A stretch of DNA of 64,000 bases from contig NC_090416.1 of assembly GCF_036365525.1 (NCBI RefSeq), positions 14,188,323-14,252,322 on the forward strand, given 5' to 3'. Below the pieces are notes generated by a model. It saw only the letters and a list, made by a program, of their open reading frames with translations. It had not been told where the DNA came from and searched no databases. A program made the position numbers and the translations under genes. This DNA is from Heterodontus francisci (taxonomy: Eukaryota). This document shows positions 9,191 through 63,243 of this stretch, piece by piece (the first letter of the stretch is position 1; each line of letters begins with the position of its first letter).

Positions 9191-24630
<15,440 letters not shown>

Positions 24631-29190: not shown

Positions 29191-29990
29191 GAGAGGCAAG
29201 GCTTTGTCTTTCAGATACAACATTAAACAAAGGTTCTGTTCTAATAGCCACCTCAAAGATCATCTGGCATTATTCACAGAAGAGCAGGGGGAAGTTCTCC
29301 CACTGTCTTGGACAATAATTATTCCTCAACCACCATCACAGTGTTGAACAATGCAACTTGATGACCATTTGCCATGCGAGAACATCACTGCCTCACAAAC
29401 CATGTCAATCCATCACTTGTGCTTGATGTCGTTCTGGTGTGCCAAAAGGCAACTTGTTTCTCTCCGGCTTGCACCCCCAAATTAAGACTGCACCCCTTTA
29501 ATCTTTTCACTTTAATATATCCTGCCAGTTTTATACCCTCTTTGCTGAAATTTGCAGATAATTGCCCCTGTAGACAGTTTCCGTCCTCTGATACCCTTGC
29601 CCATGCAAGCCCTGACTAAGAGCAGTGGCAACCTATTCCACTGTGTGAGGCATCACAATGGAATCTGATCTTGAAATCAAAGCCTTTGTGCTTTCCAGCA
29701 GGAGAGTGATCAGGAACAGGAACCATGACCGATTTTTCCTTGTGAATCCAGGGTTTTGGAGCTTATCTAAAACCACTCAACTAACTGAGACCAGAATGGG
29801 ACATCACCTGGGACAATCCTGGTTTGTTTGTGGCTCAGCAACACAACAGGTGTATTTAACCACTGACACGCCCACTACTCCAATTGGTCATTTACTTTAA
29901 TCTGAGCATTTCTATCATTTTCCTTAAACCCAATTTCCTTTTACCTCCAAGAAAACCACTTATAATGTCAATAGGCATGTGTCCTGATTA

Positions 29991-30409
29991 AAAACAAGAA
30001 ATGCTGGAACCACTCAGCAGGTCTGGCAGCATCTGTGAAAAGAGAAGCAGAGTTAACGTTTCGGGTCAACGACCCTTCTTCGGAACTGACAAATATTAGA
30101 AAAGTCACAGGTTATAAGCAAGTGAGGTGGGGGTGGGGCAAAAGATAACAAAAGGAGGTCTTGATTGGACCAGGCCACATAGCTGACCAAAAGGTCATGG
30201 AGCAAAGGCAAACAATATGTTAATGGTGTGTTGAGAGACAAAACATTAGTACAGATTAGGTGTCAATACACTGAATATTGAACAGAAGGGTCACTGACCC
30301 GAAACTCTGCTTCTCTTTTCACTGATGCTGCCAGACCTGCTGAGTGGTTGCAGCATTTTTTGTTTTCATTTCAGATTTCCAGCATCCACAGTATTTTGCT
30401 TTTATTTTT
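29991..30409. mobile_element. Penelope-type short element with inverted arms and a hammerhead motif variant, 14-bp TSD
   Basis: TSD ATGTGTCCTGATTA at 29977-29990 and 30410-30423; arms ~29991-30080 and ~30284-30366 are reverse complements. Confidence 0.8.
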
Positions 30410-30423
30410 ATGTGTCCTGATTA

Positions 30424-30703
30424 GTCGGTTTCCGTGTCAATCATGATTATCTCAATGCCCATTGACTAATTTTGCCATCAATCACGCCCTACCTTGGCTT
30501 TGCGCGTTCCGATTGGCCTGAGCCACTGTCAATCAGTTTGCCCGCCAATCAGTGGACGCCCCTGCGGTCGGAGAGCAGGACCGGCGTCATGACGCAGCAC
30601 GTATAGGGGACACAGACGCAGTGCGGCCGGAATGTATCAATGTGTGCCAATGTATCAGTTGTGAGGGAGCAAGTCCTAGGCAGCAGGGAGCAGGGAGAGG
30701 GAC
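30424..30703 (+). promoter_or_regulatory. PRUNE1 CpG-rich promoter / 5' UTR
   Basis: TGTCAATCA 30435, CCATCAATCA 30475, CTGTCAATCA 30526 (TALE-type); ATTGG 30512 and CCAAT 30545; palindrome GCGTCATGACGC 30584-30595; ETS-like CCGGAA ~30627. Confidence 0.75.
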
Positions 30704-30742
30704 ATGGAGTCTTTCTTGAGGGGCTGCAGAGCCGCTTTAAAG
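30704..30742 (+). CDS. PRUNE1: PRUNE1 coding exon 1 ([13 protein letters not shown])
   Basis: Kozak gacATGG; resembles human MEDYLQGCRAALQ; AAG|GTGAGT donor. Confidence 0.93.
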
Positions 30743-33700
30743 GTGAGTTTGCGTAGGAGCTGGGGGTTTGGGTTGGCTGCAGTGTGTGACCCTGCCTGGG
30801 GGGGGAACTAGGCATCTTGGTTTTAACTGCCCAGCTCGGTTGCAGCAGGAGCACCCAGCTTGCCCCTTAACCCTGCTAGGCCACCCCCTTCAGATGTTGC
30901 ATTGCCCCTTCTCGGCCTCCATAAACTTTAACTCATCCCAAAACTCTGCTGTCCCACCGTATCCTACGGAGTCCCATTCACCTCGCAACCCACACCCCCG
31001 CCTGTGCTCACTGACCTACATTGGCTGCTGGTCCGGCAACGCCTCCAATTTAAAATGCTGCAGATGCTGGAAATCTGAAACAAACCCCCCCCCCAAAACG
31101 GCTGGAAAAACTCAGCCGGTAGCTCCACAGTTGCTGCCAGACCTTCTGAGTTTTTCCAGCACTTGTTTTTGTTTAAAATTCTTATCCTTGTTATCAAATC
31201 CCGTTATGGCTTCTCTCCCCTCCCTATCTGTAACCTCCTCCAGCCTTGCAAGCCTCCAGGATCTCTGCGCTTCTCCAACTCTGGTCTTTTGTGCGTTTCC
31301 CCCCCCCCCCCCCCCCGATTCCCTTCCCATGATTGGCGGCCGTGCCTTCAGCTGCCTGGGCCCTAAGCTCTGGAATTCCCTTCCTAAACCGTTCCACCTC
31401 TCTCTGCTCCTTTAAAGCTTTTGATCACCTGCCCAAATATCTCGTTATGTGGCTCTCTGTCAAATTTTGTCTGCTTAACCACTCCCTCTTCATCACTGTG
31501 AAGTTCCTTGAGATGTTTTGCTATGTTAAAAGTGCTGTGGAAATGTAAGTAGTTGTTGTTAAACACTTCTCAAATGGTAGATGCACTATGTGATGTGGCA
31601 CTGCTGAAGAATACAGTTCATGTTCTCCTGTGAATTGTACGGTAACTTGAGTGAAACCCCTTGTACTACTGTACAGGAGCTTCTAGTTTTCACTGAAAGA
31701 TACAGAGTGTAATGAGGGTTCTGTTCTGTCACCTTTGCCTCCTGCTGTTTACAGAGAACCTGCTGATTGTAGTGCTCAATTATATGATCTGATTATGCTC
31801 CTGGAGGTGTTTTTACTGAGGTCAAAGCACTGTGTAAATACAAGATTTGTCTGTGACTTTAGGAGATGATAGGAAGGAGCCAGGATCTCCTTGGATAGTG
31901 CTAAAGTACAATGTTGATCTGGGATGTTATATGCACAGCAGAATAATGAGCATAGGAGGCTATTCAGCCCATTGTGCTTGTGCTGTCTCTTTGAAAGGGC
32001 TATCCAGTTAGTCCCCATACAGGCCCCCATCCCCCATTCTTTCCACATAGCCCTGCCAAATTTTAATTTTCAAGTATTTATTCAGTTCCCTTTTGAAAGT
32101 TACTATTGAATCTGCTTCCACCGCCCTTTCAGGCAGCGCGTTCCAGATCACAACAACTCCCCCCTCTAGTTCTTTTGCCAATTATCTTTAATCTGTGTCC
32201 TCTGGTTACCGACCCTCCTGCCAGTGGAAACAAAGTAGACAGGAAAAACCCACATAATTTTGAACATCTCTGCTCGAAGGAGAATAATCCCTGCTTCTCT
32301 ACTATCTCCATGTGATTGAAGCTCCTTCTCCCTGGGGGATTAGCAGTGTGTTGCGCATTGTGTCAGAGGTTGCACAGGTTTATAACAACAGGAATGTTAT
32401 CAATAGGATGAGGAAAGGGTGACACTTAGAGGAAGTTTTACATGCAAAATTGTTACTATATTGCTAGCTGGCCTCCTGTGGCGTTGCTCAATATGAGACA
32501 AAGATCACACATCCCTCCGCTGGCGTATTTCGTTGTCACCTGAAGGTTAAAGAACAGTAAAGGCTTGTACAAGGGTACTGAGGTGCAAACAGGCTGTCAG
32601 CTTGTTGAGGCTCTTTAAAAGAGTTAATATTTGAACTCTGCAAACTTGAGCTTTTTATCCATTCACAGGATGTGAGTGTCGCTGGCAAGGCTAGCATTTG
32701 TTTCCCATCCCTAATTGCCCTTGAGAAGGTGGTGGTGAGCTGCTTTCTTAAAGCACTGAAGTCCATGTGTGTAGGTACATCCATAGTACTGTTAGGAAGG
32801 GAGTTCCAGGATTTTGAAGGAACGGCGATATAGTTCCAAGTCAGGATGGTGTGTGTCTTGGAGGGGAACTTGCAGATATGGTGTTCCCATGCATCTGTTG
32901 CCCTTGTCCTTCTAGGTGGTAGAGGTTGTGGGTTTGGAAGGAGCCTTAGCAAGTTGCTGCAGTGCATCTTGTAGATGGTACACACTGCAGTGGTGCAGGG
33001 AGTGAATGCTGAAGGTGATGGATGGGGTGGTGATCAAGTGGGCTGCTTTGCAGCTCCAACAAAACACAAGAAGTAGGACAAGCATCCAGGCAAGTGGAGA
33101 GTATTCCATCACACTCCCGACATATGCCTTGTAAATGGTGGAAAGGCTTTGGGGAGTCAGGAGGTGAGTTACTTGCTGCAGAATTCCTAGCCTCTGATCT
33201 CTTGTAGCCACAGTATTTATGTGGCTGGTCCAGTTAAGTTTCTGGTCAATGGTAACTCCTAGGATGTTGATGATGGGGGAATTCAGCAATGGTAATTCCA
33301 TTGAATGTCAAGGGGAGATGGTTAGATTCACTTGTTGGAGATGGTTATTGCCCGCCACTTGTGTGGCGTGAATGTTACTTGTCACTTAGCAGCCCGAGCC
33401 TGGATGTTATCCAGGTTTTGCTGGATGTGGATATGGAGTACCGTTAGTTTCTGAGGAATCAGTCATGGTACTGAACACTGTGCAAACAACCCCACTTCTG
33501 ACCTTTTGATGGAGGGAAGTTCATTAATGAAGCAGCTGAACATGGTTGGGCCTAGGACACTATCCTGAGGAACTCTTGCAGTGATAGCCTGGGGCTGAGA
33601 TGATTGGCCTCCAACAACAACCACAACTATCTTCCTTTGTGCTCAGTATGACTCCAGACAGTGGAGAGGTTTTCCCCTGATTCCCATAGACTTCTTATTT

Positions 33701-36700
33701 GCCACGCTTGGTCAAATGCTGCCTTGATGTCCAGGGCAGTCACCTTCAGCTCCCCTCTTGAGTTCATCTCTTTTGTCCATGTTTGGATCAAGGCTGTAAT
33801 AAGGTCTGGAGCCGAGTGGTCCTGGTGGAACTCAAACTGAGCGTCACTGAGCAGGTTGTTGCTGTGTAAGTGCTGCTTGATAGCACTGTCTATGACACCT
33901 TCCATTGCTTTGCTGATGATTGAGAGTAGGCTGATGGGTAGCAATTGTCCGGATTGGATTTGTCCTGCATTTTGTGGACAAGACAAACCTGGGCATTTTT
34001 CACTTTGCCAGGTAGATGACAGTGTTGTAGCTGTACTAGAACAGCTTGGCGAGAGAGGTGACTAGTTCCACAGCACAGGTCTTCAGCACAGTAGCTGGGA
34101 TGTGAAGTACTTTGGGACATCCTGAGATCATGAAAGGCGCAATATAATTGAAAGTTCTTTCTTTGACTGAGGGAATGTTGCACTGGCAGCGGATGAGATG
34201 TTAAACCAAGTCTCTGCTGCATCATTTGGATGGAACTATTACCAGAAGGCTGGGGGAGTTCTTCCCCTTTTCCTCAACAACAACAACAATAATTTGTATT
34301 TATACATTGCTTTTAACATAGTAAAACATCCCATGGTGCTTCACAGGAGCATTATAAAGCAAAATTTGACACTGAGCCGCATAAGGAGATATTAGGACAG
34401 GTGACCAAAAGCTTGGTCAAAGCGGTTGGCTTTAAGGAGTGTCTTAAAGGAGCAGAGAGAGGCGGCGATGTTTAGTGGGGAAATTCCAGAGCTTAGGGCC
34501 CAGGCAGCTGAAGGCACGGCAGCCAATGGTGGAGTGATGGGAATCGGGGGATGCTCGTGGGAGCAGAATTGAAGGAAGGCAGAGGGCTGGAGTAGGTTGC
34601 AGAGAACAACACCTCAACTGGCACACGTTTGTCGGGAAATTGCTGTCAGGTTCCTGATAACCTGTGTAAAAACCACTTCCAAATTAAGTCATTGCGTGAA
34701 GGGGTTTGATGTGATGAGGCCCCCACGTCAATTTGTGTATCTCACTAGAATGGGGTCACGTTGATACCCTGCTGACTGAACCTTTAACATGATGTTCCAG
34801 CTGGATGGGCTGCCAATCTGCCAGCCACATACCAGAGTGCGAGAGAGAGATCACAGATGTTAGACCCATCTGGAAAGTTCTGCTTGTTTATTTGGTCGTG
34901 TGAGGGAGTTCCTTCTTGGCTTGGAGGCCAGTTGAAGTACAAAGTGGTTTGGCAGCACTAAAAGAGCTTGCATTTAGGTAGCGCCTCTCAATCTTGGGAT
35001 GTCCCAAAGTGCTTCACAGCCAATGAAGTAGTTTTATGAAGTGTTAGAACGTCGGAAATGCAGCAGCTCAATTTGCACACAGCAAGCTCCCACAATCAGC
35101 GATGGGATAATGACCAGATTATCTGTTTTAGCGATATTTAGTGATTGTGGGATAAATATTGACCCAGGACGTGAATTGTCACAAGGTACTTAGCCCCCTA
35201 CTATCCCCTCCCAAGAGTCAGTGAGGTAATAGACTCAGTGCGTTAACAGGAAGAGCACTGATATCACAAAGGCTCGACCAACTAAATTAAACATTTAAAT
35301 AATGAGTTTGAATCAAAGTAACAGCCACCAGGCCTCACTGGGGCGGGGATCTCCTCCTGTGGATTGTGTGGTGCCTTTGTCTACTGTGCCAGAGATCCTT
35401 TCGACTCCTGGTTTTTAAATCCTAGCTTCCCTCTTTTTTTTTTAATTGACTTTCTGCTTCCACATGTTTTGTGCGGTTTTCTTATTTTTAAAAAAAAGCT
35501 GCATATTTCCTTTGCCCTGAATGTTGCTGAGATCATTGAGGGCTTGGGCCAACCTCGTGATGCGAAGGAGTGGAATTTGCTCAATTGTGATGTCTAGATC
35601 ACTCGAGCTCTTCCTTATAGTTAATGGTTTATTGACGATGACTCAGCTCCCTCATAACCTAACTTCTCCAAACTGGTTTCTCTGAAGTCAGCCAGTGGAA
35701 CCCGAGCTGATTTCTACTTATCCTGTCTGTGTGAAATATTGACCCCCTTGGCAGCCTGTAGCATACCGAATTGCTGTAAAGAGGTGATTCAGACATTGGC
35801 AAGTGGGTTAGGAGAGTGAAAACGGGGTCGTGAAGGTAGATTTCAAGGACTTTCTTGAACGTGGGGAAAGAGAGGGAGCTCTGGTGTGAATGGGGGCAAG
35901 GCGGGCTGAGGATCAGTCCCCGTTGGAGCTCTCTTGTCTTTGAGTCAGAAAGTCACAGGCTCGAGCCCCATGCCAGAGACTTGAGCGCATAATCCAGGCC
36001 AACACCCTCAGTGCCGGTACTGAGGGAGTGCTGCACTGTTGGAGGCCAAGGCCCCATCTGCGCCCCCCCCCCACTCCTCAGGCGGATGTAAAGGATCCCG
36101 TGGGCACGATTTTGAAGACCAGGGAGTTCTCCCCTCAACCAACATCACTATAAAAAAAATTTTAAAAATGATCTGGGTCATTATTACATTACTGTTTGTG
36201 GGAGCTTGCTGTGCGCAAATTGGCTGCTGCATTTCCTACATTACAACAGTGACTACACTTCGCATGTTCTTGATTGGCTGTTAAGGGGTGTCCTGAGATC
36301 ATGAAAGGTGCCATAGAAAAAAGGTCTTGGGAGAGAGGAATATTTGGAGCAATGGGATAGAGAAAGATTGGAATTAAGAGCACAGTTAGAGGTAAGAGAC
36401 TGATGGAAGAGAGATTCTGTCTTTAGTCTGTTCAGATATTGAGGTGTCAAAAAAACTAGAAGCCTTTTTGTGTTGGGGCACAGCCTGAGTATACAGTCAA
36501 CATGCATTAGAGGTGAGATGAGGTTACTTCAATTAGTTTTGACACCCTGCCTTCTATCACTCCCACCCCCGCAGACCCAGAGGAAGCTCCGTGACCTATA
36601 TTTCTTTTTAAATAACATAATGGAATTGATCCTTTCTGTGGCAGGAGTGAAGTGGGATTGTTATCCTTTTGTTTTTAGAAAGAAAGACTTGTATTAATAC

Positions 36701-39700
36701 ATCAGGTTAAATGACCTTGGGATGTCTCAAAGCACATTACAGCTGATGGAATAATTTTGAAGAGTTGTCACTGTTGTAATGTAGGAAATGCGGCAGCCAA
36801 TTTGCACACAGCAAGATCCCACGGACATCAATGCGATGATAACCAGATCATCTATTTTTAGTGATGTTGGTCGAGGGATAAATATTGGCACCAGGACACC
36901 GGGGAGAACTATTTCTTTTCCTCCACCCCCCCCCCCCCCCCCCCCCCACCCCGCTCCTTTTCCAATAGTGGCCGTGGGATCTTTTACATCCACCTGTGAG
37001 GGCAGACGGGGCCTCGGTTTTAATGTTTCATCCGAAAGATGGCACCTCCAACAGTGTAGCTCTCTCTCAGTACTGGCACTGGGTGTGTAGATTTTTGTGC
37101 TCAGGTCTCTGGAGTGAGACTTGAACTCTTGTGAAAGGTTCTTAACCTGCTGACGTACAGTTCCAACGGGTACTGGTGCTTCGCCTAAGTTGTGGGCATG
37201 TCTGAGGTGATGCGAAGCGCGATTAAAAATGCCAGTTCTTTCCTTCATTCTCCTTTAACTCTTCCCCAGTAGTTATTGGATGAGGTAGAAGTGTCGCTGG
37301 AAATGGTTGGCAGCGAGAGGCAGTCTCAGCTCCTGCTCTTCCGGTGGAATGGGAACAATTGGTGGCAAACATATGAACTAGGAGCAGGAGTAGGCTATTC
37401 GGCCCGTCGAGCCTACTCTGCCATTCTGTAAGATCATGGCTGATCTGTGTGTGGACCCAACTCCACTTCCCTGCCAACCCCTGATACCCTTTGACTCCCT
37501 TGTTTGTCAAGAATCTGTCTACTTCTGCCTTAAAACATTCAACGACCCTGCCTCCACTGCTCTCTGGGGAAGAGAGTTCCACAGACTCGCAACCCTCTGA
37601 GAGAAAAAACGTTTCTCCTCGTCTCTGTCTTAAATGTGCTGGAGTGGAAATAATGGGAGCTGGTGGGTGCAGCATTCCTGGTGCGGGCAGTTTAAAGGCC
37701 AGCTCCTTGGCAGGGCTGGCATTCCGTGAGCAGAACAAAGATCCCATTTGTCATTAACGTCCAAGGAAGCTGAGCTCAACTCTTGTCCCCGACTCTCGAG
37801 CTTAGCGCTTGGTGACAGACTGTCAGATGCAAAGTAAACATAATCCCCTCTGCTGATTTCAGTTGCTTAATACAATGCCCAGTCCAGTATTGAGCCGAGC
37901 AGATTGGGAAAGCCCCAGATTTTTATTTCTAGTGTGTACTGGATTAGCTCATCTCCTCTGGTGTGCCTCATTTTAGCTTTAGTTTCCCCTGGGCTTGAGG
38001 GAGTTGGGGGTGGGGGGGGGGTGGAAATAATCAGGCGGGGTTCCCACTCCCGATTGTTATCCTGTGACCACTGCTGGAAAGCCTCTGTCGTGTCAGGCGA
38101 GGTTTGGGCTCAGTTGTGATACCACGCTCGGTTGAATGGCCTCCAGACACTTGCAGGACCTTTACCTGGGGATGTGGGTGGTTCTGGGGGGAAGGGGGGG
38201 GGGGGGGGTACAAAACAAACTCCCAGAAGGTGCCCAGCATCCATGGATCTGCAGGTGCTGACGAGGGCAGGGGAGGGAGACAGACCTGCGTTTTATATGG
38301 CGCCTTATTTTCTCTCTGTCTCTCTCAAAACATCCTGAAATGCAGTGACTTTTATTAAGGATAGGAAAGTCCCACAAAGAGATGAATGACCAGACTTGAC
38401 TATTCCAATGCATTCCCGGCTGGTCTCCCACATTCTACCCTCTGTAAACGTGAGATCATCCAAAACTCTGCTGCCCGTGTCTTAACCCGCACCGAGTCCT
38501 GTTCATCCATCACCCACCCCCTGTGACCTACATTGGCTCCCAGTTGAACTATGCCTCGATTTTAAAAATTCCCATGCTTGTTTTCAAATACCTCCATCAC
38601 CTCGCCCCTCCCTATCTCTGTAATTTCCTTCGAGATCTCTGCGCTCCTCTAATTCTGGCTTCTTGCACATCCCCCAATTTTCATCGCTCCACCATTGGCG
38701 GCCGTGCCTTCAGCTACTTGCACCCTAAGCTCCGGAATTCCCTCCCTAAACCCCTCCACCTCTCTCTCTCCTCCTTTAGTGCTCCTTAAAACTGACATCA
38801 TTGACTGAGCGTTTGGCCATCTGCCTTAATGTCTCCTTATGTGGCTCAGTGTCACATTTTGCTTTATAATGCTCCTATGAAAGGTACTATATAAATAGCT
38901 GCTGTTGTAATAAGAGTCAGGGCAGTATAGGGGCAGTGATAATGAGATTGAGTGGCAGTCATGCTTATATTTTTCCATCTTTGGTTTTCCTTGTTAAGAC
39001 ATAGCCTTTCAGAGTGAGATTTTGCCCATGCAAATGTCTGAAAAACACTCACAGCCTCAGGAAATCATGACCAGTACAAATGACTTTTTTTTTTCCATTC
39101 TGTCCATTCCTGTTCAAACATCATGTGCTGATGTCTTGAAGGGGACTGGGAACCCAGTCCAGAGAGCATAGGATCAGAATGAGTGGAAATAGTTAACCCA
39201 GGATGATTCAATGCCAGCTGTGTGTATGTTAATCCAGCTCCCTCAAGCTGCTGGGCTCAGTAACCCTTTCAAGTCAGAGTTCATAATAAGTGTCTGATTA
39301 AACAAAGGTACTTGCATTTTAATTTGCTCCGTCCAGTTTAATTGATTTTTTTTTAAATTGTCTTTTTCTTTTTTGGGTCCAATTCACCCAAATTCCTGTG
39401 ATTTGTGTGAATCGGGAACATAGGAACATTCAGCCTGAGCCTGTCAATTTGATTTTGGATCTCGACTTCGTTTACCCGCCTTGGTTTCATATAAACCGGT
39501 TTAAAAACACAACAAAAGTCCATCAACCTCAGTTTTGTAATCTTCAGTTGACCTGGAGGGTGAGTGCTTGTCAGGCTGTTCATTGGGCAAGCTCTCCTTC
39601 TCCCCCATCTCGGTTAGATCCTAGATCTGTCTGCTGATCTCAGCCGGGTGGTGTTGGGCAGCGCTAACACTGGGCCTGAGCACTTCGCGAAAGGGGAGGA

Positions 39701-45700: not shown

Positions 45701-48700
45701 GAAAGCCAAGTTTGACGTCAGCGGTAAATATCTCTTGTTGCTGCCCCGATTACTTGGGACTGATTGCAGTGGGGGGGGGGAGAAACAGAAAAATGTTGGG
45801 GAATGCAGGAGGTCCCATCCGAAGCATCGGTTTATTTTCCTCTTTCGGCCCTGGCTCAGTGGGTAGCTCTCTCCTGCCTCTGCATCAGAAGCTTGTGGGT
45901 TCGAGTCCCACTCCAGAGACTTGAGCACAGAATTCAGGCCGACACGCCCAGTGTAGTACTGAGAGCACGCTGTTATGATGTAGAAAAGGCAGCCAACCTG
46001 TGCACAGCAGGGTCCCACAAACCGAATAATGACCAGATCATGTCTTTCCATGAGTTCTGATGAAGGGTCACTGACCTGAAACGTTAACTTTGCTGCTTTT
46101 TCCACAGATGCTGCCAGACCTGCTGAGTATTTCCAGCATTTCATGTTTTTATTTCAGATTTCCAGCATCTGCAGTAATTTGCTTTTGTTTTTCCATGATG
46201 TTGTTGAGGGATAAATATTGGCCCCAGGACAGAATTTCACCCGCTTCTCCTCTTCGAAATTGTGGCCGTGGGATCTTTAACATCCACCTTTGAGGGAAGA
46301 CGGTGCCTTGGTTTAAATTCTGTACCAAAAGACGGCACTTCCGACAGTGCAGCACTCCCTTAGTACTGCCACTAGGAGGGTTGGCCTGGATTTTGTGCTC
46401 AAGCCTCTGTAGTGGGACTCGTTCCCACAAGCTTCCGACTGGTGAGAGTTCTAACCACTCAACCACGGGTGACACATATTTGAGCATAAATAGAAATTGT
46501 TGAGGGGGAGATGCAGTGAGGGAAATTCTCACCCATTGATAAAAATCGCTTTGTTCTGTCTAGAGTTGACCACCGAGCAGATGCTGAGGAAGGACCTGAA
46601 GGTTCTGTCTGGCGGGGATCTTCATTTGGCCATCAGTGCCGTCTACGTGAAGCTTGAGGTAGGAAAGTTTAGCGGATCGGTCTCACTGCTCTCTTCAAAC
46701 GCAGTGGAGTTTGAAGTAAGTTCTCTCGTTCTGAACTCCATCTCAAGCTGGCAATGTGTGCAAACCTCAGGATGGGTGTATTGGCCTTGGAGGGGGTGCA
46801 GTGCAGATTCACCAGAATGCTAAAAGGGTTAAATTATGAGAGCAACTTGCATTCTCTACATTACAACAGTGACCACACTTATCGCTACAGCGCTTGGGAC
46901 AACCTGAGCTTGTGAAAGGTGCTGCATAAATGCAAGTCTTTCTTTTAGAGACCAGGCTTGTATTCCCTCGAGTATAGAAGATTAAGGGGTGATCTAATCG
47001 AGGTGTTTCACATGATTAAAGGAGTTGCTAGGGTAGATAGAAACTATTTCCTCTGGTGGGGGGGGGGGGGGTGAGTGGGCAGAACCTTAAAATTGGAGCC
47101 AGGCTGGACAGGGGTGATGTCAGGAAGCACTTCTTCACACAAAGGGGAGTGGAAATCTGGAATTCTCTCTCCCAGAAAGGTGTTGAGGCTGGAGTGGGGC
47201 AATTGGAAAATTGCAAAACTCAGATATTTGTTGGGTAAGGGGATTAAGGGTTAAGGAACCAAGGAGGGGAGGTGGAATTAAGATATAGATCAGCCATGAT
47301 CTAATTGAATGGCGGAACTGACTCGAGGGGCTGAATGGCCTCCTCTGTTCATCGCCTTCTCAAGATGCAACTGAGGATGGGCAATAAATGCTGGTCTCTC
47401 TAGCAATGCTCACATCCTGAGAATGGATTGTTAAAAATGTAAGTGAATTTTGGGGGAGGAGGGGTTCAGGCTGTTTGTGGTGCACTACATAGTCGAATAG
47501 GCATGCCACTCTGTAGTGGGAGCGCACAGGCTTCACTGTGTCCCACCACCATTGGTGTCACGATACGTAGTTTGACTTGATCAGCTTTGACAAATCGAGT
47601 TGACTTCCCTTCTGAACTTTCACCCTTTCTCATAGGATTTACTGGCACGCCCTTGCTTGAAGACGGGGTTTGAAGAATTCTGTCGGGAGGGTGGCTACAA
47701 CGTTCTCGTTGTCATGACGATCTCCTTCAGCGAGAAGAACGAGCCTTTCAGGCAGTTGGCAGTCTACAGTCCTCGCAGCGACTTGAGAGAGTTGGTACGT
47801 TTTGAGAGAATGCGTGGGGGCTGGAAGGCCAAGTGGCCTATCTCAGCCTGCGGAAGGATTTGGAGAGCCACTCCCCACCTGATCCAGGGTCAGCTTTGCA
47901 GCTCAGAATTGGGTGTGGTGGGGAGGAGGAACCTTCTGGGGTTCCTGCTCCTCATTACCACCCAGTGGCGTCTGTTGGGCAGTGTGTGTGTGGGTGGCTG
48001 GATCAAGCTGGGTTTGTGCTGCTCCCCCTAGTTAAATAGCTTGCATCAACAGGCTCAGGAGAGAATAGTGGCCATTTGGGAGATAAGGGAGTGATAGCTG
48101 GTCCTGACTGGACTTGATACCTTTAATTGGGAGGGAGTATGGCTGTGACTCAATGGGGACGAGAGGGTTTGATTATTATACTGGAATATGGAAGTTCACA
48201 TACACATCTATAAAGGTGGTAGTAAAAGCAAGAAATTCTGGAAATACTCAGCAACCCTGGCAGCATCTGTGGAGAGAGAAGCAGAGTTAACGTTTTAGGT
48301 CAGTGACCTTTCTTCAGAACTGACCTGAAACGTTAACTCTGCTTCTCTCTCCACAGATGTTGCCAGGCCTGCTGAGTATTTCCAACATTTCTTGTTTTTA
48401 TTTCAGATTTCCAGCACCCGCAGTATTTTGCTTTTATTATAAAGGTGGTAGGATTGTCAATAAGGCTGTTTTTAAAAATTTTTTTTAAAAAGCTGCGGGA
48501 TCCTAGGTTTTATAAATGGAGGCATAGGGTACAAACGCAAGGAAATTATGTTAAGCCTTTATAAATCACTGGTTAGATCTTAGCTGGAGTATTGTCTCCA
48601 ATTCTGGGCCCTGCACTTTCGGAAGGATGTCAAGGCCTTGTAGAGGGTGTGGAGGGAGATTTACCAGAATGGGACCAGGGATGAGGGACTTCAGTTAATG

Positions 48701-50257
48701 TGGAGAGACTGGAGAAGTTGAGATTGAATTGTTCTCCTCAGAGCAGAGAAGGTTAAGGGGAGATTTAATAGAGATGTTCAAAATTTTGCAAGGTTCTGAT
48801 CGAGTAAATAAAGAGAAACCGTTTCCACTGCAGGAGGGTCGGTAACCAGAGGAGAGTGATTTAAAGTAATTGGCAAAAGAACTAGAGCGGAGACAAGTTT
48901 TCTTTTACACAGCGAGTTGTGATCTGCAATGCGCTGCCTGAAATTCAATAGCGGATTCAATAGTCCCTTTCAAAAGGGAATTGGATATAGAGAAGATTAA
49001 TCTAAAACTAGGGGCCACCAATATAAGATAGTCACCAATAAATCCAGTAGGAATTCAGGAGAAATGTTTTTACTCGGGGAGTGGTGAGAACTTGCAACAT
49101 AAACGTACCATAGGGAGTGGTTGAGACAAATAGCGTAGATGCATTTCAGGGGAAGCCGGAGAAAGGAATAGAAGGGTATGTTGATTGGGTGAGATGACGA
49201 TGGGGTGGGAGGAGGCTCGAGTGGAGTATGAACACCAGCGGGTTATTTGACCTTGGGAGGCGTCACCAGAACTGAGGCTGATCCTCATCTGAGGTCCATA
49301 ACTTTCAAAAGGGTATTGGCTATGTACGTAAAAAGGAAAAACTTTTCAAGGTGATGGGAGAAAGAGCTGGGAGGGGGGATTGGGGCAAATTGGCAGATTT
49401 TGTAGGAGGGAAATTAAAGCCACAGAGAGCATAGATTCACCAGATTGAAGGGCAGCTATTGTTTATGGAGAGATGGGGACTAATTCCACTGGAGGTTGAG
49501 AAGGCTGAGAGGAGATTTAATAAAGATTTTTTTTCAAACCAGGAAGGGTTTTTGATGGGGCGAAGACGGATTGACTAAAATCCTGTGGTTGGGGAGTCAA
49601 TGACAAGGGAGCGTCATCAATTTGAAACGGTCTCTGAGTGTGAGGAGAAGGAGTAGAGAAATGACTTTACACAGAGGGTAGTCAGAGTATGGAATGCTTT
49701 GTCACAGTGAGTGGTTGAGGCAGAGACCACTGCACCTTTCAAGGGAAATGTGGTTATGTATTAGAACAGAGGGATTTTCAAGGCTATTGGAGGAACTGCT
49801 GCCCTCTGTGTTGTCAGTCTCTCTGATTCTGTGATTACAGGTGAGCTGCGTGTTGGAGGAATACGAGGCCCCGTCTCTTCAGTTGGCGCCGATGGAGAGC
49901 CCCTGCTCGGAGATTAGTGCCTATCACCAGGGAAACAGGCTGGCGTCTCGCAAGAAGATCCTGCCGATCATCAAGGACTTCCTGAAGACCCGGGAGGCAG
50001 AGAGGGCAGCCCCCGAGCACACCTGCCGAGCGTGGGATGAGCACAGCGCCTCGCTGGACGGCCGGTGTGCTGGGTGCACGGAGGATGTCCGCCATGAAGA
50101 GGAGGCCTATCTGCCTCCCACCCCCATGAACAGCCTGGTGGAGGGCTGCCCACTGGATGGCGGCCTGCCGAATCTGACGCCGGAGGCCATTTTGGAGAGG
50201 TTCAGTAAAATGGCTGCCGAGGGCCTATCGGATCGGGCCTCATCCGGATGTCACTAA
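30704..50257 (+). CDS. PRUNE1: Exopolyphosphatase PRUNE1 (DHH family), whole gene; join(30704-30742,41465-41569,42404-42609,44132-44316,45565-45723,46564-46658,47636-47794,49841-50257), 454 aa
   Basis: Spliced CDS 1365 nt, all introns GT-AG and in phase. [48 protein letters not shown]2 (SRKKILP) and the PRUNE1-type C-terminus [19 protein letters not shown]. Confidence 0.96.
30930..31560 (+). mobile_element. L2-like LINE 3' end interrupted by a Penelope-type mini element (31057-31171)
   Basis: L2 tail on both sides; insert flanked by a TTTAAAAT duplication. Confidence 0.75.
31945..32330 (-). mobile_element. CR1 LINE 3' end
   Basis: [21 protein letters not shown] peptide on the minus strand. 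Confidence 0.8.
32655..34090 (-). mobile_element. CR1/L2-group LINE, RT fragment, degraded
   Basis: [63 protein letters not shown]. Confidence 0.9.
34280..34610 (-). mobile_element. L2-like LINE 3' end with (TTG)n tail
   Basis: Reverse complement of the L2 tail; (CAA)n at ~34275. Confidence 0.8.
35915..36320 (+). mobile_element. DeuSINE copy
   Basis: Head, Deu-domain, tail. Confidence 0.8.
36685..37135 (-). mobile_element. DeuSINE copy
   Basis: Reverse complement of Deu-domain and tail. Confidence 0.85.
37370..37635 (-). mobile_element. CR1 LINE 3' end
   Basis: Similar to the 18330-18600 tail. Confidence 0.75.
37870..38140 (+). mobile_element. Second, older SINE-like repeat family (tcagccagggttcctgctcctgatc...gctgtgatgcc core)
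   Basis: Diverged copies recognisable at ~1590-1830, 22340-22560(-), 25590-25830, 29620-29870(-), 39600-39730, 47870-48130, 51930-52130, 59370-59620; family name not assigned. Confidence 0.5.
38390..38910 (+). mobile_element. L2-like LINE 3' end
   Basis: LDYSNA-type ORF2 remnant plus tail. Confidence 0.8.
39760..40160 (-). mobile_element. DeuSINE, near full length
   Basis: Reverse complement including tRNA-like head (gtcagccatggcttggtaggtagcactcttgc). Confidence 0.85.
40700..41240. mobile_element. Two adjacent inverted DeuSINE copies (+ ~40700-40990, - ~41005-41240)
   Basis: Deu-domain in both orientations. Confidence 0.75.
41465..41569 (+). CDS. PRUNE1: PRUNE1 coding exon 2 (DHH motif I)
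   Basis: [35 protein letters not shown]; CAG acceptor, GTCAGT donor. Confidence 0.95.
41580..42050 (+). mobile_element. L2-like LINE 3' end
   Basis: L2-type tail. Confidence 0.8.
42404..42609 (+). CDS. PRUNE1: PRUNE1 coding exon 3
   Basis: [25 protein letters not shown]...[12 protein letters not shown]; TAG acceptor, AG|GTACTC donor. Confidence 0.95.
43570..43985 (+). mobile_element. DeuSINE, near full length
   Basis: Head, Deu-domain, tail ending aaatgcaagttcttt. Confidence 0.85.
44132..44316 (+). CDS. PRUNE1: PRUNE1 coding exon 4
   Basis: [19 protein letters not shown]...[12 protein letters not shown]...ILR; TAG acceptor, GTAAGA donor. Confidence 0.96.
45565..45723 (+). CDS. PRUNE1: PRUNE1 coding exon 5
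   Basis: [20 protein letters not shown]...[12 protein letters not shown]; CAG acceptor, GTAAAT donor. Confidence 0.96.
45970..46475 (-). mobile_element. DeuSINE copy interrupted by a Penelope-type element at 46054-46189
   Basis: SINE sequence resumes across the insert; TTTCCATGA duplicated at 46045-46053 and 46190-46198. Confidence 0.8.
46052..46090 (+). ncRNA. Minimal type I hammerhead ribozyme motif (Penelope-type)
   Basis: GAGUU-CUGAUGA-A-GGGUC(ACU)GACCU-GAAAC-GUU-AACUU: both conserved core boxes, stems I and II, palindromic loopless stem III; activity untested. Confidence 0.7.
46564..46658 (+). CDS. PRUNE1: PRUNE1 coding exon 6
   Basis: [31 protein letters not shown]; TAG acceptor, GTAGGA donor. 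Confidence 0.95.
46945..47350 (+). mobile_element. CR1 LINE 3' end
   Basis: [16 protein letters not shown]; same family as 14095-14390. Confidence 0.8.
47636..47794 (+). CDS. PRUNE1: PRUNE1 coding exon 7
   Basis: [53 protein letters not shown]; TAG acceptor, GTACGT donor. Confidence 0.95.
48223..48437. mobile_element. Penelope-type foldback element, 215 bp, 14-bp TSD, inserted in a CR1
   Basis: TSD TATAAAGGTGGTAG at 48209-48222 and 48438-48451; ~80-bp inverted arms. Confidence 0.85.
48452..49790 (+). mobile_element. Several CR1 LINE 3' fragments in tandem
   Basis: ctggagtattgtctccaattctgg, ggggagatttaatagag and other CR1 ORF2/tail motifs. Confidence 0.75.
49841..50257 (+). CDS. PRUNE1: PRUNE1 coding exon 8 (last)
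   Basis: VSCVLEE...[21 protein letters not shown]...[19 protein letters not shown]...*; CAG acceptor. Confidence 0.95.
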   Translation: MSCVLEEYEAPSLQLAPMESPCSEISAYHQGNRLASRKKILPIIKDFLKTREAERAAPEHTCRAWDEHSASLDGRCAGCTEDVRHEEEAYLPPTPMNSLVEGCPLDGGLPNLTPEAILERFSKMAAEGLSDRASSGCH

Positions 50258-50589
50258 CCTGGGACTGGATTGGACGAGCTGATAGCTTTTCTTTGTTATT
50301 GTTGACGGAGGTGGGGCAGTGGGGAAGAGGCCATTTCAACTAGTTAGTGTCCCCAACCCTTGTGCCAGGATCCAGTGGCCCAGGCAGTGATTCATTCACT
50401 TCAGCTCTGTTGAGGCCTCTTTTTTTTTTTTTAATCTGTCACCTGGGTCAGGAAGCTCTAAGGTTCTGTCCTAGGTATCCCCGCCCCATCCCCTCTTGCT
50501 ATTGAGCATCAGCCATCCGTCCATGCTTCCTGACACCAGGAGCTGGGATCAATTTCTGCTCTTCCATGCAATCCAACAAAACACGGAGC

Positions 50590-51040
50590 CTGAGCAGGCC
50601 ATTCAGCCCCTTGAGCTTGTCCCAGCATTCATTGAGATCATGGCTGATCTGTGACCTAACTCCATATACCTGACTTTGCCCCCATATCCCTTAATACCTT
50701 TGGTTAACACAAATCTGTCAATCTCAGATTTAAAATTAATGATTGATCTAGCATCAACTGTCATTTGCGGAAGAGAATTCCAAACTTCTGCCGCCCTTTT
50801 GTGTGTGCAAGTATTTCCTAAGTCTCCCCTAGTGCTAGACTCTCCAACCAGTGGAAATACTTTCTCTCTAGCCTATCAGTTTCCCTTAATATCTTGAAAA
50901 CTTTAATCAAATTTTCCTTTTAATGTTCTAAATTCCAGGGAATCCACCCCAAGCTTGTGTAATCTCTCCTTGCAATTCACCTCTTAAAGTCTAGGTATCA
51001 TTCTGATAAATCTACGCTGTGCTTCAAGGCCAATGTATCT
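50590..51040 (-). mobile_element. CR1 LINE 3' end just downstream of the PRUNE1 stop
   Basis: Reverse-complement CR1 tail. Confidence 0.75.
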
Positions 51041-53479
51041 TTTACAGACACATAGGGGGCTCCTTCTTGGGACAAGAAGCTCTATGTTGATATTGGGTAC
51101 TCTTGGAGGGGTGGGGGGTGGGGGGAAAGAGTCCTTAATCTTTTGCCTATCCACCTGAATCTTCTAGGGTTAGGGCAAAAGGGTGCATCCCCTAAGAGGA
51201 GAGAATGTGCCCCTCACATCAGGCAAACATGGGGATGGGCTGCTGCCTATATTAGGCTTCCAGGTTGGTCTAGATAAGCAGCTCCCAATTTCACTGACCA
51301 CTCTGGGCATTTACTGAATGAGAGGTCAGGCACTTATTGACATGAAGGGTGGGATTGGTTTTGGGGGACACTTTTTTTTTTGCTTCCTCTGTAGATGCTG
51401 CAAGAGACCCACCTAGAAAGAGTCCATTTGGCCCATGGTGCCTGTGCCAGCTCTTTGAAAGAGCTGTGTGATTGGACCCTCTTGCCAGCCGCTCATTTCC
51501 CCCGTAGCCCTGCAGGAAATGTTCCCCTTTTGTTTTATCTTATTGGACTGTGAGGCAGGGCAAGGGGAAATCCGAATCACCTGGTACCAAACCCACCCAC
51601 CCCCCCAACCCCCTTCCCTCCAACCACTTCCCAAAATTGCACAGGCTTCACTGTCGAGGTAAGGGAGAGAGAGGCCATAGGCTCTGAGTGAGTACTGTTG
51701 GTTTAAGCTACTTTAGGCATTTTCTTTGTAACTTCCAGAGCTACCAGATGCCAAGCTCTCGGAGATCGAGAAATTCCACTTGTCCAAACTCCAGGACCTG
51801 TGCTCAGTGTTGCGTTTAGGGGGGATTGGGGGGGGGGGGGGGGCGGTGTGGGGCAGGGGGATGGGTAGAGGGTCAAGAATCTGTACCTTTAGAATCTGAC
51901 ACCATATAATTTAAGCAATAAGATGACTCCAGTGTAGGCTAGGAGGTGTGGTATACAGCAATACAGAGCAGGACGAAGGCACGGCTTGATCCCTGGTCAG
52001 TGCTCAGTTAGCAGCCTGGCTTCAGCTCCTCTTGATCAGGACGGGGATGGGGGGATGGTAATCGCGATGCAGTGACTTCCCCCAGATGGATAGTGAAACT
52101 TCGGTGAGACCAGGGACCTTGGCCCTGATACACCCAGAGTCTAGTTTGATGTAAGAAAGGAGCGTCACTGGGGTGTGATCCGATGGAGCACCAGTGGAAA
52201 TGTATCCCAGCGAAGCTTGGTATTTTTCGGGAGAATGGGAGGATCAAACGGTCAGCCGAAAGATAAACTTCTCCGTTTGCACGAGGGGCACATTGAAACC
52301 TATCAAAAGTCTTCCACTTGGGGAGGTCGCCTGGTTCTCCCATGATATTTCAGGATTTGAAACAAAAGTTTTTTTTTGTGTGTGTGTTTTTTGTGTAAAT
52401 CGGTGAAACTATGCAACATTTTTTAAATTCTGAAGTTAAATTTTGAGTGTGAAAATCTGATTGTGTGGGATGGGTTTGCTTGTAAAATGCAAGCCTTTTT
52501 CAGGATTGAGTTTGAATCCACATGGAAGGTGTGTGACCCTGTCGCAGAGGGCCTCCATGTATTTTATTTGCCCCTCATGCCACCTCTTCTAGAGACACAT
52601 TGACTCTTGTTCATTGAGACCCTCTTCACTGCCCCCTTCCCATCACATAGGAGCACAAGTGAATTGGGGAGCTCAGTGGAGTGTGGTATAGTCTCTTTTT
52701 TCCCCCCCAAACCACCACACCATGGTGCTATATGACTGAATTTTAAAAAAATACTTCCATGAAATGAGTATTGCTGGCAAGGCCAGCATTTTTTGCCCAT
52801 CCCTAGTTGCCCTCGAAGGTGGTGGTGAGCTGCCTTCTTGAACCGCTGCAGTCCATCTGGTGTAGGTACACCCATGGTGTTGTTCGGGAGGGAATTACAA
52901 AGGTTTTACAGCACAGAAACAGGCCATTCGGCCCATCTGCTCTGTGCTGATGTTTACGCTCCATACGATCTTCCTCCCACCCCCTCTTCATCTCGCCCTA
53001 TCAGCATATCCTTTGTTCCTTTCTCCCTCGTGTGTTTATTCAACTTTCCCTTAAATACGTCCATGCTATTTGTCTCAACCACTCGTTCCGCATTCACACC
53101 ACTCAAGATGTTATTGCTCAATTCCAAATTGGATTTATTAGTGACGATCTCACAGCAAGGAAAGGAATCCCATTGCCTAATTTTACGTTCGATGCCCCAT
53201 AGGGGTGGTTCAGACAAACTCGGAGGTCCATCTACGCCGACTTCAACATCAGTTATCAGGAAACAGTCACTGCCAGGCATGGAAGGTTGCTGTTGTATTA
53301 GCAGAGTGCACTCTGTCTTTTCGATTAGTACTCTCGCTTCCCAGGCAACAAAGAAACACAAACTATTCCTATGGCTCATGTGCAAGTCTGCGTCTAAACA
53401 ACATTCATGTGTACGAGCCAATGATAAAAGGATTGCTGACCCAGTGATTATTAATTCAGCCATGGCACAGTCAATAACT

Positions 53480-53925
53480 GCAGCTCTTGCTCTCTCGCCC
53501 CTGAGTTAAACGGTGTGGGTTCAAGTCCCACTCCAGAGACTCCAGCACAATATCTAGGCTGATGCTAACAGTGCCAGGACTGAGGGAGGTGCTGCACTGT
53601 CAGAGGTGCCATTTTTTGGGTGAGACGTTAAACCGAAGAACCATCTGCCCCCTCAAGTGAACGTAAAAGATCCCACGGCAGCTGTTTCAAAGAACAGCCA
53701 CAGGGGTGTTCTCCCAGTGTCCTGAGCCAATATTTATTCCTCAAACACTTTTTTTCAAAAATAAAAATCTGCTCGTGATCATATTTCTGCTTGGAGGAAT
53801 CCTGCTGTGCATAAATTGGCTGCATTACATTACAACAGTGACTATACTTTAGAAGGTACTTCATTGACTCTAAAGCTTTGGGAAGCCCTAAGGTTGTGAA
53901 AGGCGCTATAGAAATTTAAGTTCTT
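53480..53925 (+). mobile_element. DeuSINE, near full length
   Basis: B-box-like gggttcaagtccc, Deu-domain, tail. Confidence 0.85.
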
Positions 53926-54614
53926 GTCAAGGTACTGAGCCCCATCAAACTGGCGAAACAAAAGAGATTTACCAGAAGAAAACAATCCTTGATCAGATAT
54001 TGATGTTTTAACTGTTCTATGAAGGACAGTGCTGGCAGATTTCATTATTAATTATTAATGACTAGAAGTTTGAGAAACTCTGTTAACTTTCTAGTTGTGT
54101 TTTTAAAAAAATATATAATGTTACAATGGCAGCAAAAATGTCGCTGGAGGTAATTGATTTTCCTAATGTGTTAGCAGATGGCGTTTGAGGACGCTGGTGC
54201 GTGGTATTACCACATGGTGAGATGGGCATGATTGCCCTGACGCGGGGCTCCGATCGCAGGTGCAGGTTGCTGTGTTTGAGGTGGGGGTAAAGGGGGTGTG
54301 GGTTGGTGGGATAGGGGGTTGGGGGGGTGGAGTCTGGGAGAGACAGTCATATCTGGGCCCTGCTTATACATCTTCAGGCAGAAGGCTTGAGAGCATGCCA
54401 CAGAGGCAAAAGGGATAACTTGGAGGAAAATGAAAGGATTGGTGTCATAGAGCAAAATGCAGTTAATTTTTAAAAATGAATTAAAACCAATTAACTATAC
54501 AAAATATTCTGTCAAGTGTCGCTTTCTTTACAGCTCTGTTAGTAGCTATGTTTAACTCTGGTTTAATTAGATCTATGACTTGTGAGTTATCATGGTATCT
54601 GCTGTGTTGAGTGG

Positions 54615-54740
54615 GAAAAGGTCACAGACCTGAAACGTTAACTCTGCTTTTCTCAACACAGATGTTGCCTGACCCGCTGAGCATTTCCAGCATTTTCTAT
54701 TTTTGTTTCAGACCCCATCAACAGTAGTATTTTGCTTTTG
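54615..54740 (+). mobile_element. Penelope-type short element, 5'-truncated within the hammerhead motif
   Basis: aggtcacagacctgaaacgttaactctgc...gtattttgcttttg. Confidence 0.7.
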
Positions 54741-63240: not shown

Positions 63241-63243
63241 CTT

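What the first reader, a model, noticed from the sequence alone, without database searches (positions are those of the whole stretch)
29991..54740. Family of short, TSD-flanked, hammerhead-bearing Penelope-type elements (retrozyme/SINE-like) with variable 5' inversions
Seen: five copies (29991-30409, 31057-31171, 46054-46189, 48223-48437, ~54615-54740) share a 3' end of the type ...TTTCAGATTTCCAGCATC(C/T)GCAGTATTTTGCTTTT. Four have TSDs of 14, 8, 9 and 14 bp, three are self-inverted, and none encodes protein. Four contain all or part of AGTT-C(T/C)GA(T/A)GA-A-[stem II]-GAAAC-GTT-AACT. The first pair of stem II varies while staying paired: G-C (both arms at 30 kb), G-U (46 kb), A-U (48 kb, 54 kb), while the loop drifts (GUU/ACU/ACA). 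Established: Penelope-like retroelements carry minimal type I hammerheads with a palindromic stem III in their pseudo-LTRs and often form inverted termini. Inference: this is either a non-autonomous ribozyme-containing family mobilised by a Penelope RT/GIY-YIG protein, or extreme 5' truncations of an autonomous shark Penelope. Whether it is already catalogued cannot be determined here.
Basis: partly seen in the sequence, partly recalled or inferred. Interest (0 to 1): 0.72.

Follow-up and report, generated by a model that had tools for sequence, protein, structure and literature searches.

The report
Short stubs of shark Penelope retrotransposon
These short ribozyme-bearing repeats are cut-down copies of a very abundant, still intact Penelope-type jumping gene rather than a separate mini-element, and many begin at the first base of the ribozyme, which likely marks where the jumping gene's own RNA starts.

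Summary
The five copies, four TSDs (14, 8, 9, 14 bp) and three inversions are real. They are not a separate SINE or retrozyme. They match the 3' end of an intact Penelope-like element (Neptune-type motifs, 924-aa RT + GIY-YIG frame, 3.3-kb tandem arrays). The genome holds 59,219 exact tail matches. Short and long copies share the same subfamily alleles. 31 of 94 sampled copies stop within 13 nt of the hammerhead's 5' edge, and none at its cleavage site. An extra G, short re-copied starts and a TATA/Inr-like context suggest run-off at the capped mRNA start after internal priming. That step is inferred; no RNA ends were seen. Only 2 of the 5 window copies keep an intact core. The anatomy (minimal hammerhead, inverted arm, tail) is published. 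Other notes of this scan, on this genome and other shark genomes, reached similar readings; they are not independent support.

The parts
29977..29990 (+). Left TSD (14 bp) of the 30-kb insertion; right copy 30410-30423
29991..30284 (-). Inverted arm of the 30-kb insertion: element positions -3 to -299 (0 = first base of the tail 30-mer); starts at 3' end site 1 and runs through the hammerhead into the 3' UTR; 92.9% identical to an intact unit
30051..30087 (-). Complete minimal type I hammerhead motif, young-subfamily core (C at position 4, A at 7), stem II first pair G-C
30284..30409 (+). Direct arm, positions -92 to +38, ending in the tail (3' end site 2); hammerhead broken by a 6-nt deletion over stem III
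31049..31179 (.). 31-kb insertion with 8-bp AT-rich TSD: tail arm on minus strand (31052-31084, +27 to -5), site-1 arm on plus strand (31124-31180, -52 to +7); no hammerhead
46045..46198 (+). 46-kb insertion with 9-bp TSD (46045-46053 and 46190-46198): single arm from -100/-99 to +38, beginning at the first base of hammerhead stem I (the piled-up class)
46053..46089 (+). Complete minimal hammerhead with canonical core; predicted cleavage after 46085; stem II first pair G-U
48209..48451 (.). 48-kb fold-back insertion with 14-bp TSD: minus arm 48224-48324 (-3 to -103, G12 changed to A), plus arm 48319-48437 (-83 to tail); the arms share 6 nt at the junction
54617..54740 (+). Older, decayed single-arm copy (-90 to +33, 80.6% identity to the intact unit), no TSD, 5' core box missing

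Best explanation
The five repeats are 5'-truncated, partly inverted insertions of an autonomous Penelope-like retrotransposon with an intact RT + GIY-YIG gene, and the many copies that begin at the hammerhead's first base are likely reverse-transcription run-offs at the start of the element's mRNA. Shown: the element is a 3.3-kb unit (hammerhead, two 3' end sites about 35-40 nt apart, ORF, 3' UTR); insertions carry TSDs with a mode of 14 bp; inverted arms mostly start at site 1 and direct arms end at site 2; 5' ends pile up at -105 to -93 and avoid the cleavage site at -68. Inferred: the nuclease cuts both strands about 14 nt apart and RT primes inside the RNA at the two sites, from one cut (single arm) or both cuts (head-to-head arms joined by microhomology), as shown in vitro for the anole Poseidon element (PMC11167929). 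Inferred, less certain: transcription starts at the A that opens stem I, so each mRNA has one hammerhead-tail module at its very 5' end and another at its 3' end. Priming on the 5' module would run off at the cap after about 100 or 135-140 nt, giving the short class. Such stubs would lack the upstream promoter and be dead ends. The templates were uncleaved RNA. Odds: truncated Penelope rather than separate family about 0.93; run-off at the mRNA start about 0.6.
For: Intact partner: a protein search gave 41,781 candidates, 150 scored, many with the same 924-aa open frame in arrays of 3,290-3,301 bp period; units 98-100% identical. Pfam RVT_1 E 6e-6 and GIY-YIG E 0.002, both below curated cut-offs; DKG, YIDD, CX4CX2C linker and CXXC/YIGET motifs present. 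Window arm 29990-30284 matches it at 92.9%. Sample: the first 100 exact tail matches on contig C1, 94 kept. 21 of 94 extend beyond -200; 40 of 94 have an inverted arm; 25 of those 40 start at -3 to +4; TSD >=8 bp in 57 of 94, 25 of 57 exactly 14 bp. Pile-up: 31 of 59 copies at risk stop in -105..-93 (0.040 per nt, against 0.0006-0.0015 upstream of -119); 16 of 33 among copies >=96% identical to the intact unit; 20 of 36 inverted arms likewise; 0 of 69 and 0 of 36 at -70..-64. 11 of 21 non-inverted edge copies have an adjoining TSD. No separate master: 70 edge against 45 long modules, 11 variable sites, all Fisher p>0.1, no private allele. Template-end signs: base before -100 is G 38, A 25, T 6 of 69; G in 14 of 26 with host-like flanks against 2 of 13 internal truncations, p 0.037; 7 of 69 end in a re-copy of the element's own first bases. 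2 of 11 ORF-bearing copies that reach the upstream module stop at -99/-98. TATAA-like bases at -30..-25 from the A in most of 37 contexts; of 85 Inr-like hexamers in the unit only the one at -100 has that upstream motif.
Against: No RNA 5' end was observed: only assembled contigs were on offer, most merely guessed to be RNA. The 13-nt window and the TATA/Inr criteria were chosen after seeing the data. The pile-up is not a single base: ends spread from -103 to -93 with a mode at -98 (11 of 31), and 4 of 28 stop at -118..-106. The G excess is weak once element-derived flanks are removed (n=26 against 13), and RTs also add untemplated bases. 8 of 11 ORF-bearing copies continue past -100, which needs multimeric RNA or template jumps. 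In Drosophila virilis Penelope the start site lies upstream of an intron whose end abuts helix I (PMC2377424, PMC4209133), so a start at helix I is not the rule. The sample is from one region of one contig and needs an exact tail. Clade assignment is by motif, not by tree.
Confidence: 0.8

Rival explanations
1. Same family origin, but the pile-up is a stall or release point: RT primed on the 3' module lets go at the edge of the folded or protein-bound hammerhead, or the new cDNA folds back on stem II and short palindromes, without an RNA end there.
For: A second cluster lies at -92..-80, where stem II is self-complementary (14 of 73 at risk). Many -98 junctions look like fold-backs or microhomology joins (read by eye). 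The anole ribozyme is protein-assisted (PMC11167929).
Against: Only 1 of 74 stops on entering the structure (-79..-64). The 37-nt fold is weak (-7.9 kcal/mol). In vitro the anole RT product length followed the template's 5' end (PMC11167929, different clade). It does not explain the G excess or the promoter-like context.
Confidence: 0.25
2. The edge is a 3' splice site (pyrimidine tract then CAG at -101..-99), and short copies come from spliced or splice-cleaved RNA.
For: The sequence fits an acceptor; the modal 5' end is -98; the D. virilis intron ends at helix I (PMC4209133).
Against: No shared upstream exon is seen: 23 of 69 copies starting at -100 have the TSD within 12 nt, and most others join an inverted arm. 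No GT-AG joint appeared among the listed joints of the laid contigs (lists were cut).
Confidence: 0.08
3. An independent non-autonomous SINE- or retrozyme-like family with its own short master RNA, mobilised in trans by the Penelope protein.
For: About a third of sampled copies share nearly the same 5' end and have TSDs. Animal retrozymes are proposed to derive from pLTRs (bioRxiv 10.64898/2026.07.22.740005).
Against: No private alleles; every common hammerhead haplotype occurs in long copies too. 5' junctions differ copy by copy. No head-to-tail arrays of the short unit among the 94. The putative promoter is left behind.
Confidence: 0.05
4. Hammerhead self-cleavage makes the short templates.
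Against: 0 of 69 main and 0 of 36 inverted ends at -70..-64; the short copies contain the whole ribozyme, upstream of the cut.
Confidence: 0.03

Closest known systems
Canonical EN+ Penelope-like elements, Neptune/Nematis type (Craig et al. 2021, PMC8557442; passages read)
   Same: Single RT + C-terminal GIY-YIG ORF with CX2-5CXXC linker, partial tandems, heavy 5' truncation, inverted 5'-truncated arm, optional 30-40 bp tail.
   Different: No tree against named families was made. TSDs here are clear, mode 14 bp. A sharp pile-up of 5' ends at the hammerhead edge is not mentioned in the passages read.
Minimal hammerheads of metazoan PLEs (Cervera and De la Pena 2014, PMC4209133; parts 1-2 of 4 read)
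   Same: Type I, 4-bp stem I, extra base before stem II, G-C closing pair, palindromic stem III; mostly solo copies from truncated PLEs, sometimes paired on opposite strands.
   Different: The youngest subfamily here has C at core position 4; that paper's parts read name coelacanth, fish, frog and reptiles, not sharks.
Poseidon of Anolis carolinensis (Frangieh et al. 2024, PMC11167929; parts 1-2 of 4 and supplement 1 read)
   Same: Two internal RT start sites bounding the tail, both strands cut and extended, uncleaved RNA as template, no RNA ends at the cleavage site.
   Different: Different clade; its ORF begins inside the hammerhead, whereas here a 30-codon in-frame upstream frame and a stop precede the main ORF.
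Adineta vaga Penelope insertions (Arkhipova et al. 2013, PMC3846280; passages read)
   Same: Inverted pLTR with tail, palindromic junctions, 8-10 bp TSDs, TATA plus Inr-like motifs in the pLTR.
   Different: Low copy number; inversions there were read as self-priming on antisense RNA.
Animal non-LTR retrozymes (bioRxiv 10.64898/2026.07.22.740005; parts 1-3 of 5 read)
   Same: Non-coding, type I hammerhead, related to pLTRs, reported in one chondrichthyan genome.
   Different: Defined as tandem repeats with at least two hammerheads; these copies are dispersed monomers or head-to-head pairs with TSDs.

Membership tests
EN+ Penelope-like element | Single ORF with RT and C-terminal GIY-YIG linked to this 3' end | tested here: met
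   924-aa frame, Pfam RVT_1 E 6e-6 and GIY-YIG E 0.002 (below cut-offs), directly upstream of the module
EN+ Penelope-like element | Tandem or partial-tandem arrangement forming pLTRs | tested here: met
   Arrays of 3,290-3,301 bp period in L065-L069
EN+ Penelope-like element | Inverted 5'-truncated arm and optional 30-40 bp tail | tested here: met
   40 of 94 inverted; 25 of 40 inverted arms start about 35-40 nt short of the tail end
Neptune clade | CX2-5CXXC linker between RT and EN, DKG motif, CCHH-type EN | tested here: met
   CX4CX2C ending near residue 798, DKG at 328, CXXC at 830; the linker is shared with Nematis
Neptune clade | Grouping with named Neptune RTs in a tree | not testable with these tools
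   No named reference set held; homologues carry no clade names
Minimal type I hammerhead | Core boxes, stems I and II, palindromic stem III, NUH site | tested here: met
   Intact in 2 of 5 window copies; core positions 109-115 of 115 conserved except positions 4, 7 and the CpG of stem III
Minimal type I hammerhead | Compensatory change beyond chance | tested here: inconclusive
   One pair varies: G-C 56, G-U 53, A-U 5, other 1 of 115; it is also a CpG site; no R-scape run
Minimal type I hammerhead | Self-cleavage as monomer or dimer | not testable with these tools
   Needs an assay; the dimer model scores -13.7 and -8.5 kcal/mol against -24.8 and -23.6 for a stem II duplex
Non-LTR retrozyme | Head-to-tail tandem units each with a hammerhead | tested here: not met
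   No such array in the window or among the 94 sampled copies; not searched genome-wide
Non-LTR retrozyme | Unit ends at the cleavage site; circular RNA | tested here: not met
   0 of 69 and 0 of 36 ends at the cleavage site; circular RNA not testable
SINE-like non-autonomous family | Own master lineage with diagnostic alleles | tested here: not met
   No private allele in 70 edge against 45 long modules
SINE-like non-autonomous family | Internal promoter carried by the short copy | not tested
   No Pol III head was sought formally; the unit is wholly Penelope-derived

The most novel reading that the evidence does not exclude
In this Penelope family the capped mRNA begins at the first base of hammerhead stem I, and the hammerhead-tail module acts like the R region of an LTR element: RT primes internally on the 5' copy, makes a strong-stop cDNA, and either inserts it as a 100-140 bp stub or jumps to the 3' copy and continues, which is how pLTRs and partial tandems arise. 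The tens of thousands of stubs would be a genomic record of that step.
Probability: 0.45. Interest if true: 0.62.

Novelty: new member of a known kind. Interest (0 to 1): 0.36.

Why it matters
As a family it is ordinary: one more Penelope-like element with a known minimal hammerhead and known insertion anatomy. Its value is as a test system. The element is intact and very young, with near-identical arrays, and its insertions record a 14-bp stagger, two priming sites and a sharp stop at the hammerhead edge. How PLEs regenerate their promoter-bearing pLTR and what their hammerhead does are open questions. The run-off model makes the first testable with one CAGE library and one in vitro reaction. 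The absence of ends at the cut site adds genomic support to the in vitro result that uncleaved RNA is the template.

Tried and rejected
Rfam scan at E<=1: four microRNA-hairpin hits on the 48-kb fold-back, explained by the inversion; no hammerhead family. Folding z-scores of the motif and module are not significant. The first 30 loci were chosen by likeness to the 46-kb copy, so they were not used for the 5'-end statistics; they do enter the haplotype table. Subfamily divergence as the cause of the pile-up was rejected because it holds in copies >=96% identical to the intact unit and is TSD-bounded. Sequencing runs: 23 listed, all contigs, 3 on record as RNA; two lays cannot show starts or strand. 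They showed no GT-AG joint among listed joints, including none for a possible 96-nt intron over the tail, but the lists were cut. Their depth step near the hammerhead edge in runs of organisms A and B is not a copy number and is not used. The protein atlas gave no answer. Lunse et al. 2017 on dimer-cleaving PLE hammerheads is not held, so I saw only its citation and a review's summary. Repbase and Dfam are not available, so whether this family is catalogued is open. Paper searches listed nothing describing this shark family or a 5'-end pile-up at the hammerhead edge; the library lacks most subscription journals, and figure S2 of PMC11167929 (genomic coverage) was not seen and may bear on this. 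Supplements of the bioRxiv preprint were not seen.
Full report
Observation. An exhaustive search gives TSDs of 14, 8, 9 and 14 bp for the 30, 31, 46 and 48 kb copies and only a 6-bp match at 54 kb. Three are head-to-head inversions. A complete hammerhead core survives in 2 of 5: the minus arm at 30051-30087 and 46053-46089. The others have a deletion over stem III, G12 changed to A, or a missing 5' half. Rfam gives no hammerhead hit and folding energy is unremarkable, so the identification rests on the core boxes and on the published minimal motif (PMC4209133, parts 1-2 read).

The parent element. A search of the window's own 6.0-Gb genome with the 46-kb copy gave 2,300 candidates, 40 scored. 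Many of the 30 loci shared upstream sequence with staggered starts, leading into RT and GIY-YIG coding sequence. A protein search gave 41,781 candidates; among the 150 scored, many have the same 924-aa open frame and sit in arrays with a period of 3,290-3,301 bp whose units are 98-100% identical. The protein matches Pfam RVT_1 (E 6e-6) and GIY-YIG (E 0.002), both under the curated cut-offs. It has the DKG motif and a CX4CX2C linker, which PMC8557442 (passages) gives for Neptune and Nematis. Its closest named relatives are two bamboo-shark proteins at 71% and 67% identity, then marine invertebrates at about 50-54%; the shark host is inferred from this. All five window insertions align to the end of this unit, the 30-kb left arm over 295 nt at 92.9%. 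Exact counts: 59,219 tail 30-mers, 24,476 of the young hammerhead form, 7,113 of the canonical-core form; reversed-pattern controls gave 0.

Is there a separate short family? I took the first 100 exact tail matches on contig C1 (loci), dropped 3 near-identical duplicates and 3 tails internal to tandems, and kept 94, of which 5 are cut off at 1.5 kb. 21 of 94 extend more than 200 nt upstream. 40 of 94 have an inverted arm, and 25 of these 40 begin at a site about 35-40 nt short of the tail end, the known optional tail. TSDs of 8 bp or more were found for 57 of 94, 25 of them 14 bp. Among 115 ungapped modules (from L001-L030, L070-L169 and the window), 70 short and 45 long share the common haplotypes; 11 variable sites show no frequency difference (all p>0.1) and no allele is private to short copies. 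No tandem array of the short unit was seen. So the retrozyme and SINE readings fail their tests.

The pile-up. With 0 at the tail 30-mer, stem I opens at -100 and cleavage is predicted after -68. 31 of 59 copies at risk end in -105..-93, 0.040 per base, against 0.0006-0.0015 upstream of -119 and 0.0025-0.0045 downstream of -64. In copies at least 96% identical to the intact unit it is 16 of 33. Inverted arms do the same (20 of 36). None of 69 main or 36 inverted ends falls at -70..-64. The window was chosen after seeing the data, but the excess is far beyond that (p about 1e-12 after a tenfold correction). The 46-kb copy and the 48-kb minus arm belong to this class. A smaller cluster at -92..-80 (14 of 73) coincides with self-complementary stem II.

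What makes the edge. A search for young copies with a non-C base before the A at -100 gave 4,837 matches. I fetched 78 of the first 100 rows, leaving out rows that by eye continued as element sequence and one second arm of a fetched locus, and dropped two tandem duplicates; 7 of 76 were templated. In the other 69 the preceding base is G 38, A 25, T 6 (p 4e-5 against 31.5% G). Restricting to host-like flanks leaves G in 14 of 26, against 2 of 13 at internal truncations (p 0.037), which is weak. Seven of 69 show a short re-copy of the element's own first bases (p 4e-4), as if RT realigned at a template end. Of 11 ORF-bearing copies that reach the upstream module, 2 stop at -99/-98, 1 at +11 and 8 run on. 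The A at -100 sits in an Inr-like hexamer (consensus recalled) with TATAA-like bases about 29 nt upstream in most of 37 contexts; it is the only one of 85 such hexamers in the unit with that partner (criteria post hoc). TATA and Inr-like motifs were noted in rotifer pLTRs (PMC3846280, passages), while D. virilis Penelope has a TATA-less internal promoter (PMC2377424, passages).

Mechanism. Shown here: two 3' end sites, a 14-bp modal TSD, two-armed insertions, a stop at the hammerhead edge and no use of the cut site. From the anole element (PMC11167929): both strands are cut and extended, RT starts at two internal sites, and uncleaved RNA is the main template. Inferred: the mRNA starts at -100 and carries the module at both ends; priming on the 5' copy runs off at the cap and leaves a promoterless stub; two such cDNAs joined by microhomology give the fold-backs. 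I put this at about 0.6, stalling at a folded or protein-bound edge at 0.25, and a splice-site origin at under 0.1. RNA data could not decide: only contigs were available.

The ribozyme. Across subfamilies the core is held except at positions 4 and 7 and CpG sites, and one stem II pair moves among G-C, G-U and A-U (56, 53, 5 of 115). That fits selection on the fold but is a single pair. The youngest subfamily has C at position 4; PMC3088659 (passages) says a viroid U4C variant has much lower activity in vitro yet works in vivo. Transcripts of the inverted copies are predicted to fold into long hairpins that bury the motif. Cleavage was not tested.

Novelty. The class, the motif and the anatomy are published; I could not check Repbase or Dfam. 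My paper searches did not list a description of the pile-up, but the library is incomplete. After forming this reading (notes) I found that 166 notes of this scan match the same words and that several on this genome propose the same cap-ended run-off. They are unchecked AI notes on the same element and add no independent weight. Verdict: a new member of a known kind with a testable mechanistic hint; interest 0.36.

Noticed in passing
L068:2179-2298 (and 11 other ORF-linked loci): The hammerhead-tail module holds a 30-codon frame that starts at the first AUG after -100, is in frame with the main ORF and is separated from it by one TAA; the stop is present in all ORF-linked copies examined, including an older subfamily. 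Re-initiation, read-through or a 96-nt intron over both priming sites are possible; no spliced joint was seen.
   Followed up: partly
G000, young subfamily: The youngest, intact subfamily has C instead of U at hammerhead core position 4 in 24,476 exact copies, so the most active form carries a non-canonical core.
   Followed up: partly
L181, L178, L207, L242: One or more short repeats of the element's first 4-8 bases precede position -100, resembling telomerase-like realignment at a template boundary.
   Followed up: partly
window 9221-11160: A tandem array of about 30-bp units, roughly 1.8 kb, with open Pro-rich frames on several strands; probably a minisatellite.
   Followed up: no
window-wide, e.g. 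21517-21615, 15451-15563, 20558-20803: Several other dispersed repeat families of 60-280 bp with 4-10 copies each, likely SINE and LINE remnants; not identified.
   Followed up: no
window 63046-63999: A 318-codon open frame on the plus strand with LINE-like (CR1/L2-type, recalled) RT fragments.
   Followed up: no
L034:7238-7956; L032:862-1580: An RTE-like LINE fragment (class recalled) is inserted in the 3' UTR of an older Penelope copy in L034 and recurs at 91-95% identity elsewhere.
   Followed up: no
L132-L134 and L086-L087: Identical insertions with identical flanks recur 24 kb and about 280 kb apart on C1, indicating local segmental duplications.
   Followed up: no
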